64,000 nucleotides of DNA, from positions 4,173-68,172 of the forward strand of contig JBOHRQ010000005.1 in assembly GCA_050732875.1 (NCBI GenBank), read 5' to 3'. Shown here piece after piece: positions 16,941 to 17,713 of this stretch (positions are counted from its first letter, which is position 1; each line of letters starts with the position of its first letter). The translations under genes and the position numbers were made by a program. A model generated the notes under the pieces. That model did no database searches. It saw only the letters and a list, made by a program, of their open reading frames with translations, and was not told where the DNA came from. The stretch comes from Gemmatimonadota bacterium. Lineage in GTDB: Bacteria; Gemmatimonadota; Gemmatimonadetes; JACCXV01; JAHWKZ01.

Positions 16941-17713
16941 AAGACAACCAACTTGCCCACTTCGGGAGCGATTCCGACTTAAACCCGGCTCATAACGGAG
17001 AAACCGCCAGCTTGACCCCCACCCTCGATAGGAGTGGTGGAGTGTCCGGACTCGGTGATTCCGTGGGAAGTCGGCGTTGCGAGACATCGATCGTGACGCT
17101 TGACCCCGTAACGACTGATCGTCCTTCGGGACGTGAGATCGATGGCCCTGTCGGGCCGCAACAGAGCCCGGCAAATTCATGGCCGCGATCAGACGCCGGC
17201 CCCTTGTGCAGTGCCGAGCAGTACCATGCCGTCTACATCTCCGGCTACGCTGACGGAGAGGGGTGCTTCACCGTTTCCATTTCGCCACGAGCGACCTTGC
17301 GAGTGGGATGGGAGGTGAGGCCCAGCTTTTCGGTCAGCCAGAATGGCGATCGGGCGGAGGTACTGAATCTTCTCAAGGACTACTTCGGATGCGGCAGCAT
17401 CCGACCCGACCGCAGCGACAAGACGCTCAAGTGGGAGACTCGTCGACTCGACGACATCGTCGATCGCGTGATCCCGCACTTCGAGCGATACCCGCTGCTA
17501 TCGCGAAAGCGACACGATTTCGAAAGCTTTGCGACCGTCTGTAAAATGATGGTGGCCGGAGCCCACCGAGATCGATCGGGTCTACGCGACATCGTACGAC
17601 TCGCTCATTCGATGAACTTGGGCGGGAAACGACGTTACGCGGCAGAAGAGATCCTGGGGACACTGCGAAGGGTGAAGGAATAGTCTGCGCCACTGGAAAC
17701 AGTGGATGACGCG
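16941..17713 (+). mobile_element. group I intron 3 in 23S rRNA (after E. coli U1951), 773 nt, carries a LAGLIDADG homing endonuclease ORF
   Basis: Follows exon ...GUCGGGU and ends in G before AAGUUCCGACCUGCACGAAUGG. P7 CAGAC 17190-94 / GUCUG 17683-87. AAUAGUC J8/7-like element at 17679-17685. Confidence 0.85.
17204..17683 (+). CDS. single-motif LAGLIDADG homing endonuclease (I-CreI/I-CeuI-like homodimer type), intron-encoded
   Basis: Track ORF 17012..17683. Motif YISGYADGEGCF about 10 codons after in-frame TTG 17204. Downstream FERYPLLSRKRHDFESF...RLAHSMN typical of the family. No in-frame ATG or GTG nearby, so the start is uncertain. Confidence 0.8.
   Translation: MCSAEQYHAVYISGYADGEGCFTVSISPRATLRVGWEVRPSFSVSQNGDRAEVLNLLKDYFGCGSIRPDRSDKTLKWETRRLDDIVDRVIPHFERYPLLSRKRHDFESFATVCKMMVAGAHRDRSGLRDIVRLAHSMNLGGKRRYAAEEILGTLRRVKE

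What the first reader, a model, noticed from the sequence alone, without database searches (positions are those of the whole stretch)
16941..17713. L1951 intron encodes a single-motif LAGLIDADG endonuclease with no AUG start and a stop codon inside the ribozyme core
The ORF has one LAGLIDADG motif (YISGYADGEGCF) in roughly 160 codons, so it is a homodimeric I-CreI/I-CeuI-type enzyme.
- It begins just after the 5' strand of P7 (17190-94). The only plausible initiator is in-frame TTG 17204.
- Its TAG (17681-83) lies within the AAUAGUC J8/7-P7 element, so protein coding and catalytic RNA overlap.
- The frame is also open back to 17012 across P1-P7. This is probably untranslated, but it allows in-frame fusion to upstream sequence.

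The reading frame is intact, unlike several mobile and toxin genes elsewhere in the window. The element may therefore still be mobile.
Basis: partly seen in the sequence, partly recalled or inferred. Interest (0 to 1): 0.7.

Follow-up and report, generated by a model that had tools for sequence, protein, structure and literature searches.

The report
Homing-endonuclease intron in 23S rRNA gene

Summary
The feature is real. Window 16941-17713 is a 773-nt group I intron inserted after U1951 of 23S rRNA. It encodes one single-domain LAGLIDADG homing endonuclease. It is not rare. 324 GTDB species genomes encode a relative, and 142 fetched loci carry an intron at this exact site. Coxiella burnetii L1951 and insertions in candidate-phyla-radiation (CPR) bacteria at 23S position 1952 are published precedents.

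Confirmed:
- one LAGLIDADG motif, with the catalytic Glu present;
- no in-frame AUG start;
- TAG 17681-83 lies in the invariant AAUAGUC element at the J8/7-P7 junction. 134 of 140 relatives also end the ORF in or beyond the 3' ribozyme core.

Corrected:
- The P7 5' strand is the invariant ACGACU at 17112-16, not 17190-94.
- TTG 17204 is not conserved, has no Shine-Dalgarno (SD) motif, and lies in the P8 stem.
- All ten members of this intron's subgroup instead have an SD motif followed by ATG or GTG at the position of GTG 17042. That start gives a 213-aa protein whose first 54 residues are encoded by the ribozyme core and are predicted to be disordered.
- In-frame TAA 16940-42 rules out fusion to upstream sequence.

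The endonuclease core is under strong purifying selection (dN/dS about 0.1). Verdict: a new member of a known kind, of modest interest.

The parts
16941..17713 (+). Group I intron at 23S position L1951 (773 nt), ending in omega-G at 17713
   Evidence: The flanks GUCGGGU|...|AAGUUCC restore helix 71 of 23S rRNA. Across the two rounds of fetched loci, 142 have an intron at the same site, and all 76 boundaries printed end in G.
16937..16958 (+). P1 and the internal guide sequence. GGGU|AAG (16937-43) pairs with CUUGCCC (16952-58), with a U16940-G16955 wobble at the 5' splice site. AACUU (16950-54) can pair with the 3' exon AAGUU (17714-18) to form P10.
   Evidence: The U-G pair is present in 128 of 128 sequences. 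The minimum-free-energy fold gives the same helix. P10 is read directly from the sequence.
16962..16977 (+). P2 hairpin UCGGGA/UUCCGA with a GCGA (GNRA) loop
   Evidence: 97.9% of cells are paired. All 6 pairs show double (compensatory) changes. Shuffled columns give 75%.
16985..16989 (+). P3 5' strand CCGGC, which pairs with 17195-99
   Evidence: 99.4% paired. Pair 16987-17197 is GC in 113, CG in 20 and AU in 1 sequence.
16995..17107 (+). P4-P5-P6 domain. P4 is 16995-99/17060-64. P5 is 17003-06/17053-56, with an extension hairpin 17019-26/17032-40. P6 is 17065-72/17102-07. P6a is 17073-77/17096-100.
   Evidence: P4 is 100% paired with four pair types at 16999-17060. P6 is 99.5% paired. All 5 pairs of P6a show compensatory changes. 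The fold of 17003-56 agrees.
17030..17034 (+). AGGAG Shine-Dalgarno-like motif in the P5-extension hairpin, 7 nt upstream of GTG 17042
   Evidence: GGAG, AGGAG or GGAGG lies 5-10 nt before the start codon in all 10 subgroup members. In the folded RNA it is partly base-paired.
17042..17683 (+). Most likely endonuclease ORF: GTG start, 213 aa, TAG stop. It covers 83% of the intron.
   Evidence: This exact product is in the protein collection as P0121, called on NCBI assembly GCA_973786185.1. The start position is conserved as ATG in 8 of 10 and GTG in 2 of 10 relatives. Residues 1-58 have pLDDT below 50, and residues 60-210 form a confident LAGLIDADG fold.
17112..17116 (+). P7 5' strand, within the invariant GUAACGACUGAU element. 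It pairs with 17682-87. G17113-C17685 is the presumed guanosine-binding pair.
   Evidence: Invariant and paired in 134 of 134 sequences, except 130 of 134 for the last pair. It directly follows the P6 3' strand, which is the canonical position.
17120..17190 (+). Peripheral helices between P7 and P3'. P7.1 is 17120-24/17129-33 with a UUCG loop. P7.2 is 17137-47/17181-90. P7.2a is 17149-56/17166-73.
   Evidence: P7.1 is 95% paired and the outer part of P7.2 is 92% paired. All 5 pairs in each show compensatory changes. The minimum-free-energy fold reproduces them.
17183..17185 (+). CCG codon at the position where 95 of 106 relatives have the ATG or GTG start (the proximal start, lost here)
   Evidence: The change is matched by changes in the P7.2 5' strand (alignment).
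17190..17194 (+).
   Evidence: The middle base is G, U, C or A in relatives. Only 101 of 134 would pair with the invariant C17685.
17195..17199 (+). P3 3' strand GCCGG
   Evidence: It covaries with 16985-89.
17201..17213 (+). P8 5' strand CCCUUGUGCAGUG.
   Evidence: The outer 5 pairs with 17668-72 are 92% paired, and 4 of the 5 show compensatory changes. TTG is present in only 4 of 10 subgroup members.
17234..17269 (+). LAGLIDADG motif YISGYADGEGCF. The catalytic Glu codon is at 17258-60 (E73 of the 213-aa protein).
   Evidence: Pfam match. The Glu aligns with the catalytic Glu of I-LtrWI and other I-OnuI-family enzymes. It is invariant in 37 aligned homologs.
17661..17672 (+). P8 3' strand CACUGCGAAGGG, which also encodes C-terminal residues of the protein
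17673..17687 (+). J8/7 (UGAAGGAAU, 17673-81) followed by the P7 3' strand (AGUCUG, 17682-87). The stop codon TAG is at 17681-83.
   Evidence: AUAGUC is invariant in 134 sequences. 27 of 140 relatives use this UAG and 27 use the UGA 8 nt upstream.
17690..17705 (+). P9 hairpin CCACUG/CAGUGG with a GAAA loop
   Evidence: 98.5% paired, and 5 of 6 pairs show compensatory changes.
16934..16940 (.). Left half of the presumed endonuclease target. In the intron-less allele GTCGGGT joins AAGTTCCGAC (17714-23) to give the inverted repeat GTCGG-N7-CCGAC, which is the DNA of rRNA helix 71.
   Evidence: Read directly from the sequence. A symmetric target fits a homodimeric enzyme. Cleavage was not tested.

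Best explanation
Window 16941-17713 is a group I intron inserted after U1951 in helix 71 of the 23S rRNA gene. Its core is P1-P9, with two extra helices, P7.1 and P7.2, between P7 and P3'. From memory, that layout marks subgroup IA.

Splicing (inferred from anatomy). The guide sequence AACUUGCCC aligns both exons. Guanosine-dependent self-splicing at U16940 and G17713 would restore helix 71.

The protein. The loop of P8 carries a single-domain LAGLIDADG homing endonuclease. It is most likely translated from GTG 17042, which lies 7 nt after an AGGAG motif in the P5-extension hairpin. Translation then runs through P5', P4', P6, P7, P7.1, P7.2, P3' and P8 and ends at the UAG of the invariant AAUAGUC element.
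- The product is 213 aa.
- About 54 N-terminal residues are dictated by ribozyme sequence and predicted to be disordered.
- The remaining roughly 155 residues form the catalytic domain.

Homing (inferred). As a homodimer the enzyme would cut the nearly palindromic intron-less site GTCGG-GTAAGTT-CCGAC. Repair from an intron-bearing copy would then spread the intron.

Regulation (inferred). The ribosome-binding site is partly paired and the ORF covers the catalytic core. Folding for splicing and translation should therefore exclude each other on a single RNA molecule.

Shown here: the anatomy, the homology, the conservation of the start signal, and purifying selection. Inferred: splicing, dimerisation, cleavage, and which start is used in vivo.
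For: Insertion site and boundaries.

Ribozyme model:
- 64 pairs are 96.0% paired in 134 distinct related introns, against 83.6% (maximum 84.2%) in 200 column shuffles.
- 42 pairs show changes on both sides, against a mean of 31 (maximum 36) in shuffles.
- Partners slid by 1-2 columns give 6-67% pairing.
- Local folds agree with the model.

Protein:
- Pfam LAGLIDADG_1, E = 1e-23.
- Sequence matches to solved structures: I-OnuI-family half-domains and I-TnaI.
- AlphaFold gives pLDDT 82-98 for residues 60-210. The best fold matches are I-TnaI (5gkk, TM-score 0.87) and I-Vdi141I (0.85).
- The catalytic Glu is invariant.
- dN/dS is 0.07-0.14.

Start codon:
- 95 of 106 relatives start with ATG or GTG at the position of 17183-85.
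- The 6 loci found by DNA search that lack this start all keep the frame open at least 156 nt further upstream, against 2 of 95 (Fisher p = 2e-8).
- All 6 sit in the only frame that passes the invariant UAA and UGA triplets of the core, against 35% of the others.
- 10 of 10 subgroup members have a Shine-Dalgarno motif plus ATG or GTG at the position of 17042.
- The annotated product P0121 starts there.

Precedents:
- Coxiella burnetii L1951 intron, 720 nt with a 157-aa LAGLIDADG ORF (PMC1995217).
- LAGLIDADG_1 ORFs at 23S position 1952 in CPR bacteria (PMC11270868).
- ORFs that overlap core sequences (PMC3984707).
Against: - Rfam's group I model RF00028 gives no match to this intron at E up to 10, even when only the 5' half is offered.
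- P7 is invariant, so covariation cannot confirm it.
- A purine-rich AAGGA motif is also conserved at the same loop in clades that start translation elsewhere. The Shine-Dalgarno-like motif alone is therefore not proof of initiation.
- Six of the ten subgroup sequences were found through already-called long ORFs, which is an ascertainment bias.
- The subgroup sits in one host lineage, with 23S exons 91-99% identical. The ten are therefore not independent.
- The JGI pipeline called the 159-aa TTG form for several near-identical contigs.
- No expression, splicing or cleavage data exist.
Confidence: 0.72

Rival explanations
1. The endonuclease is a 159-aa protein that starts at TTG 17204, and the open frame upstream is untranslated.
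For: - TTG 17204 is in frame and lies 10 codons before the structured domain.
- The JGI gene caller produced 159-aa and 156-aa TTG-start products for near-identical metagenome contigs.
- The N-terminal 58 residues of the long form are predicted to be disordered and so are probably dispensable.
Against: - TTG is present in only 4 of 10 subgroup members. The others have CTT, TTC, TCC or AGC there.
- There is no Shine-Dalgarno motif in the 20 nt upstream.
- The codon lies inside the P8 5' strand.
- Every lineage that lost the usual proximal start keeps a long open frame leading back to an upstream start. An untranslated region would not need that.
Confidence: 0.17
2. The protein is kept mainly as a maturase that helps the intron fold and splice, and its endonuclease activity is weak or lost. 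On this reading the intron is a fixed, vertically inherited resident rather than an active mobile element.
For: - Within one host lineage (23S exons 94-95% identical) the ORF has diverged to synonymous saturation (dS above 1.2) while dN/dS stays near 0.08. That is unexpected for a fixed selfish endonuclease gene.
- The review cited here notes that homing endonucleases may also have maturase activity (PMC11270868).
Against: - The catalytic Glu and the whole motif are invariant.
- The family occurs in many phyla at the same site with 57-73% protein identity. That pattern fits repeated horizontal homing.
- The two roles are not mutually exclusive.
Confidence: 0.15
3. The ORF is a recently inactivated relic that is no longer translated, and it is intact only by chance.
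For: - There is no AUG start.
- The ORF lies in an rRNA transcript, which is a poor context for translation.
Against: - dN/dS is 0.07-0.14 against relatives at every distance.
- The 132-codon core has no insertions or deletions in any sequence compared.
- The start signal is conserved.
Confidence: 0.03

Closest known systems
Coxiella burnetii 23S rRNA intron Cbu.L1951 with its LAGLIDADG ORF (Raghavan et al. 2007, cited in PMC11270868; tabulated in PMC1995217)
   Same: The insertion site is the same (L1951). The size class is the same: 720 nt with a 157-aa ORF, against 773 nt here. It also encodes a single-domain LAGLIDADG protein. It also sits next to a second group I intron at L1917, separated by a short exon.
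   Different: The host is unrelated and GC-rich. The ORF here appears to start in the P5 extension and to read through the ribozyme core. The window also has a third intron, at L1923. I could not align the two sequences because the Coxiella sequence and paper were not on hand.
I-TnaI (PDB 5GKK), the endonuclease of the Thermotoga 23S L1931 group I intron
   Same: It is the best structural match (TM-score 0.87 over the target, rmsd 2.2 A, 33% identity). It is also the best single-domain match by sequence (E = 1.9e-24). It too is a bacterial endonuclease encoded in a 23S rRNA intron.
   Different: The insertion site (L1931) and hence the target sequence differ. It has no long N-terminal leader.
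LAGLIDADG_1 ORFs in 23S rRNA insertions of CPR bacteria, including position 1952, and the characterised enzyme I-ShaI (PMC11270868)
   Same: They are single-domain enzymes encoded in group I-like insertions at the same cluster of 23S sites (1917, 1931, 1952, 2593 and others). Homodimer formation and cleavage were shown for one member. CPR loci appear among the relatives found here.
   Different: That survey covered CPR bacteria. Here the bulk of the family is in Actinomycetota (Thermoleophilia, Gaiellaceae, Acidimicrobiia), Chloroflexota, Dormibacterota and an unidentified GC-rich lineage.
I-CreI and I-CeuI, homodimeric LAGLIDADG enzymes of chloroplast LSU rRNA introns
   Same: There is one motif per chain. 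The enzymes act as homodimers on pseudo-palindromic rDNA sites. I-CeuI is a fold match (TM-score 0.67).
   Different: They are more distant than I-TnaI or the I-OnuI-family half-domains. Their insertion sites differ (L2593 and L1923). In those introns the ORF sits in other loops.
Intron ORFs that overlap ribozyme core sequences, with translation held in check, for example phage T4 td and I-TevI (as reviewed in PMC3984707)
   Same: The ORF extends into core elements. The ribosome-binding site is partly sequestered in RNA structure. Translation and folding are expected to compete.
   Different: Here the overlap covers almost the whole core, from P5' to the P7 3' strand, rather than one edge. The host gene is an rRNA gene, so there is no exon translation to coordinate with. 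Regulation was not tested.

Membership tests
Group I intron | The 5' splice site follows a U that forms a U-G wobble in P1 with the internal guide sequence. | tested here: met
   U16940-G16955. The U-G pair is present in 128 of 128 aligned relatives. The minimum-free-energy fold gives P1.
Group I intron | The intron ends in a guanosine (omega-G). | tested here: met
   G17713. All 76 introns listed end in G.
Group I intron | A conserved core of P3-P9, including the P3/P7 pseudoknot arrangement, supported by comparative data. | tested here: met
   64 pairs are 96% paired against 83.6% in shuffles. 42 pairs show compensatory changes. P7 itself is invariant, so covariation neither supports nor contradicts it.
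Group I intron | A guanosine-binding G-C pair in P7 within the R and S sequence elements (ACGACU and AUAGUC). | tested here: met
   G17113-C17685 is invariant in 134 sequences. This shows sequence presence only. Binding was not tested.
Group I intron | A match to the curated covariance model Rfam RF00028. | tested here: not met
   There was no hit at E up to 10 on the whole region or on the 5' half alone. The two neighbouring introns do hit (64.1 and 48.3 bits). This is a limit of the model, not a defining property of the family.
Group I intron | GTP-dependent self-splicing, or spliced rRNA in vivo. | not testable with these tools
   No RNA data are available.
Group I intron subgroup IA | Extra helices P7.1 and P7.2 between the P7 5' strand and the P3 3' strand. 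| tested here: inconclusive
   Two covariation-supported helices occupy that position. However, the definition is recalled from Michel & Westhof 1990, and PMC3984707 only names P7.1 and P7.2 as class-defining elements. No subgroup-specific model was run.
LAGLIDADG homing endonuclease, single-domain | A LAGLIDADG_1 profile match above the curated cut-off, with one motif per chain. | tested here: met
   84.6 bits against a cut-off of 23.1, in one stretch.
LAGLIDADG homing endonuclease, single-domain | A conserved acidic residue at the end of the motif, which binds the catalytic metal. | tested here: met
   E73 (17258-60) aligns with the catalytic Glu of solved enzymes. It is invariant in the homolog alignments.
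LAGLIDADG homing endonuclease, single-domain | The alpha-beta-beta-alpha-beta-beta-alpha core fold. | tested here: met
   The AlphaFold model has H61-73, E74-82, E90-101, H106-115, E119-122, E128-133 and H136-149 at pLDDT 82-98. Foldseek probability is 1.00 to I-TnaI, I-Vdi141I and I-CeuI. This rests on a prediction.
LAGLIDADG homing endonuclease, single-domain | Homodimerisation on a pseudo-palindromic target. | not tested
   The target has the inverted repeat GTCGG-N7-CCGAC (direct reading). That is consistent with a homodimer, but no dimer model or assay was made.
LAGLIDADG homing endonuclease, single-domain | Site-specific double-strand cleavage of the intron-less allele. | not testable with these tools
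   This needs an enzyme assay.
L1951 intron and endonuclease-gene lineage | Insertion between U1951 and A1952 of 23S rRNA. | tested here: met
   142 related loci have an intron at the identical site.
L1951 intron and endonuclease-gene lineage | Sequence homology to the published Coxiella member. | not tested
   The Coxiella sequence was not retrievable here. Only its size and site are known, from PMC1995217.

The most novel reading that the evidence does not exclude
In this host lineage the endonuclease gene lost its usual start codon, which lies in the P7.2 3' strand. It relocated initiation to a Shine-Dalgarno motif plus start codon in the P5 extension. As a result 83% of the intron, including nearly the whole catalytic core (P5' to the P7 3' strand), is read by ribosomes in the one frame that the invariant core leaves open. 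The ribozyme core would then be dual-coding for a disordered leader peptide. Splicing and translation would be mutually exclusive states of the same RNA. The long purifying selection on the ORF within this lineage could then reflect a maturase or regulatory role rather than pure selfishness.
Probability: 0.5. Interest if true: 0.45.

Novelty: new member of a known kind. Interest (0 to 1): 0.3.

Why it matters
- **Scale of the family.** L1951 endonuclease introns, known from Coxiella and CPR bacteria, turn out to be a very large family in soil and freshwater bacteria. There are 4408 homologs at E up to 1e-5, and 324 GTDB species genomes encode a relative.
- **ORF-ribozyme overlap is the rule here.** The 3' end of the ORF stops wherever its frame meets one of the stop triplets built into the ribozyme core.
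- **Start-site turnover.** This intron's subgroup offers a clean natural comparison for how a homing-endonuclease gene changes its start inside a catalytic RNA.
- **Annotation.** Gene callers disagree on this gene (159 aa against 213 aa), and Rfam misses the intron altogether. A dedicated covariance model for this family would improve rRNA and gene annotation in metagenome-assembled genomes.
- **Applied interest.** A conserved rDNA-targeting single-domain meganuclease family with thousands of natural variants is a possible engineering resource.

Tried and rejected
- **Rfam searches.** Searches of the whole window (gathering threshold), of 16500-17900 and of the 5' half alone (both at E up to 10) gave no group I hit for this intron. 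The structure therefore had to be built by hand.
- **Alignment tools.** mafft-qinsi is not installed. RNAalifold on the global 134-sequence alignment gave a poor, fragmentary consensus, and I did not use it.
- **My first guess for P3** (GUCGGCG at 17071-77 paired with CGCCGGC at 17194-200) was dropped. CCGGC 16985-89 paired with GCCGG 17195-99 covaries.
- **A possible CUGAUC/GAUCAG pairing** (17115-20 with 17187-92) was considered and dropped. It is absent in the Acidimicrobiia clade.
- **Literature.** The Raghavan 2007 Coxiella paper is not held. Searches for 'Cbu.L1951' and '5GKK' found nothing.
- **Host identity.** The 23S exons are at most 77% identical to any named locus fetched.
- **Frame-preserving insertions and deletions in the leader.** I considered these as evidence of translation but gave them little weight, because six of the ten sequences were found through called ORFs.
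Full report
**What is at the coordinates**

Rfam places a bacterial 23S rRNA gene at 14250-18665 and a 5S gene at 18803-18919. Reading 16700-17900 shows the helix 71 sequence ...CCUUGUCGGGU interrupted at 16940|16941. It resumes as AAGUUCCGACCUGCACG at 17714.
- With E. coli numbering counted from the helix 69 sequence, the insert lies after U1951.
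- The insert is 773 nt and ends in G.
- The frame holding the LAGLIDADG motif is open from 16943 to TAG 17681-83.
- The codon before it, TAA 16940-42, straddles the 5' splice site. No fusion to upstream sequence is possible.
- There is no in-frame ATG before the domain. The in-frame candidates are TTG 17012, GTG 17042, GTG 17063, GTG 17093 and TTG 17204.

**The protein**

- Pfam gives one LAGLIDADG_1 match, E = 1e-23, 84.6 bits, in a single stretch.
- Against solved structures, the best sequence matches are the two halves of monomeric I-OnuI-family enzymes. Among single-domain enzymes the best are 5gkk and I-Vdi141I. The motif Glu aligns with their catalytic Glu.
- An AlphaFold model of the 213-aa form, built from a 37-sequence alignment, is confident (pLDDT 82-98) from about residue 60 to 210. 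It has the alpha-beta-beta-alpha-beta-beta-alpha order. Residues 1-58 have pLDDT below 50 and no secondary structure.
- Foldseek ranks I-TnaI first. This is the endonuclease of the Thermotoga 23S L1931 intron (TM-score 0.87 on the target). I-Vdi141I (0.85) and I-CeuI (0.67) also match.
- The 'single-motif, homodimer-type enzyme' reading therefore stands. Dimerisation itself was not tested.
- The intron-less target contains the inverted repeat GTCGG-N7-CCGAC, which is simply the DNA of rRNA helix 71. That fits a symmetric dimer.

**How common it is**

- The protein has 4408 homologs at E up to 1e-5. The best 120 are all at least 69% identical.
- 324 GTDB species genomes encode a relative. They are mostly Thermoleophilia/Gaiellaceae and Acidimicrobiia. 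Chloroflexota, Dormibacterota, Patescibacteria, Acidobacteriota, Gemmatimonadota and Proteobacteria are also represented.
- A JGI metagenome scan found 519 more relatives.
- In the first round, 75 of 81 fetched loci have an intron of about 690-830 nt at exactly this site, all ending in G.
- After the second round, 142 sequences (the window included) have a complete intron there.
- Published precedents are the Coxiella burnetii L1951 intron (720 nt, 157-aa LAGLIDADG ORF; PMC1995217) and LAGLIDADG_1 ORFs at 23S position 1952 in CPR bacteria (PMC11270868).
- The window comes from NCBI assembly GCA_973786185.1, contig CCZJMN010000138.1.

**The ribozyme**

Rfam's RF00028 does not detect this intron, so I built the structure by comparison.
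- I removed the ORF interior from 140 related introns. This left 134 distinct sequences, which I aligned. I then scored hand-derived helices.
- The helix map in window coordinates is given in the parts list. Omega-G is at 17713.
- Over 64 pairs, 96.0% of cells form standard pairs, against 83.6% (maximum 84.2%) in 200 column shuffles.
- 42 pairs have changes on both sides, against a mean of 31 (maximum 36) in shuffles. Partners slid by 1-2 columns give 6-67%.
- Local minimum-free-energy folds reproduce P1, P2, the P5 extension, P7.1 and P7.2.
- The guide sequence AACUUGCCC can pair with both GGGU of the 5' exon and AAGUU of the 3' exon.
- Two helices between P7 and P3' are, as I recall from Michel and Westhof, the mark of subgroup IA. 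This assignment was not tested.

**Correction of the P7 assignment**

- In relatives the middle base of that pentamer is G, U, C or A.
- It would pair with the invariant C17685 in only 101 of 134 sequences, and 17190 would pair in 103 of 134.
- By contrast, ACGACU at 17112-16 lies in a stretch (CCCCGUAACGACUGAU) that is invariant in all clades. It directly follows the P6 3' strand and pairs with AGUCUG in all sequences.
- So 17190-94 is the joiner between P7.2 and P3'.
- The statement about the stop codon holds. U17681 is the last base of J8/7, and A17682 and G17683 open the P7 3' strand.

**The stop codon is a family habit**

Counts among 140 related ORFs:

| Where the ORF ends | Number |
|---|---|
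| UAG of AUAGUC | 27 |
| UGA 8 nt upstream, in J8/7 | 27 |
| Further 3' inside the intron | 18 |
| Runs on into the 3' exon | 62 |
| Before the P8 3' strand | 6 |

The C-terminal tail is therefore whatever the frame meets in the ribozyme core. Overlap of intron ORFs with core sequences is a recognised situation (PMC3984707, its Figure 2b and accompanying text).

**The start codon**

- In 95 of 106 relatives that share the CGAUCAGACGCCGG segment, an in-frame ATG (44) or GTG (51) lies immediately 5' of it. In 45 of these, a stop codon directly precedes the start.
- The window has CCG at that position (17183-85). The change is matched on the other strand of P7.2.
- Six loci found by DNA search lack this proximal start: the window, L082, L083, L084, L025 and L121. 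All six keep the frame open at least 156 nt further upstream, against 2 of 95 of the others (Fisher p = 2e-8).
- The invariant core contains UAA 17109-11, UGA 17116-18 and UGA 17134-36. These close two of the three frames. All six loci use the one open frame, against 33 of 95 of the others.
- I fetched DNA for six more subgroup members. All ten sequences have GGAG, AGGAG or GGAGG 5-10 nt before an in-frame ATG (8) or GTG (window and L082) at the position of window 17042. The few codons after the start differ freely between them.
- The window's 213-aa product from GTG 17042 is the form recorded for the NCBI assembly (P0121).
- TTG 17204 is present in only 4 of the 10 (CTT, TTC, TCC or AGC elsewhere). 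It has no Shine-Dalgarno motif and lies in the P8 5' strand.

Caveats:
- The ten hosts are one lineage, with 23S exons 91-99% identical.
- Six of the sequences were found through called ORFs.
- A purine-rich AAGGA loop motif exists at the same place in clades that start elsewhere.
- JGI's caller chose the TTG for near-identical contigs.

I put the GTG 17042 start at about 0.7.

**Consequences if GTG 17042 is used**

- The ORF is 642 nt of the 773-nt intron.
- Ribosomes would read through P5', P4', P6, P7, P7.1, P7.2, P3' and P8.
- The 54 leader residues are dictated by RNA constraints and are predicted to be disordered.
- The Shine-Dalgarno motif and the start codon are partly paired in the P5-extension hairpin.
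- It is a reasonable inference, but untested, that a folded splicing-competent intron is not translated. Translation would then occur on unfolded or excised RNA. The review literature describes tight control in such cases (PMC3984707).

**Is the gene alive?**

- Nei-Gojobori estimates over the 132-codon core give dN/dS of 0.07-0.14 against relatives from 95% down to about 65% identity.
- There are no insertions or deletions in the core in any sequence compared.
- The ORF is therefore under purifying selection.
- Within the host lineage, synonymous sites are saturated (dS above 1.2) while the 23S exons differ by only about 5%. Selection has therefore lasted a long time.
- That fits recurrent homing. 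It also leaves room for a maturase role, which I list as a non-exclusive rival.

**Verdict**

The feature is a genuine, intact L1951 group I intron with a single-domain LAGLIDADG endonuclease gene. It belongs to a large and already described kind. The interpretation needs three corrections: the position of P7, the likely start codon, and the impossibility of upstream fusion. The relocation of the start into the P5 extension, with near-complete dual coding of the ribozyme core, is the only mildly unusual aspect.

Noticed in passing
window 16289-16940: Two more group I introns lie just upstream in the same 23S gene. One is at L1917 (16289-16676, 388 nt; Rfam RF00028 48.3 bits, just under the cut-off). 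The other is at L1923 (16683-16912, 230 nt). Only a 6-nt exon, AACGGU (16677-82), separates them, and a 28-nt exon (16913-40) precedes the L1951 intron. The Rfam hit at 16639-16900 (64.1 bits) straddles the end of the first intron and takes one of its 3' hairpins as P1. Of 119 related loci, 82 have no intron at 1917 or 1923, 37 have one of the two, and none has both.
   Followed up: partly
window 1-64000: The 23S and 5S genes are present, but there is no 16S gene anywhere in the 64-kb window. The rRNA operon therefore appears to be split. The only tRNAs are tRNA-Ser at 11686-11765 and tRNA-Asp at 53046-53130.
   Followed up: no
L083, L164 and other subgroup loci compared with window 17243-17638: The endonuclease core has diverged to synonymous saturation (dS above 1.2) with dN/dS about 0.08 between hosts whose 23S exons are 94-95% identical. 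Such long purifying selection inside one host lineage is not what the gain-decay-loss cycle of selfish endonuclease genes predicts.
   Followed up: partly
window 17027-17041 and the equivalent loop in L001-L061: A purine-rich AAGGA(C) motif in the P5-extension loop is conserved even in clades whose ORF starts elsewhere, and it is often followed by GUG. It may be an RNA tertiary-contact motif that was later co-opted as the Shine-Dalgarno sequence in the window's subgroup and in L025 and L121.
   Followed up: partly
L022, L033, L047, L055, L119: In these related introns the usual start codon is present but is out of frame with the LAGLIDADG domain. They may be frameshifted, decaying copies, or they may use other starts.
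   Followed up: no
L001 5286-5792: The 2.4-Mb contig that carries homolog P0014 has a second LAGLIDADG_1 ORF about 750 nt downstream of its L1951 intron. It is probably another 23S intron near position 2593.
   Followed up: no
window about 19171-19714: A RelB antitoxin gene and a YafQ toxin gene were called just downstream of the 5S gene on the source contig (locus L162 positions 5130-5396 and 5494-5673).
   Followed up: no
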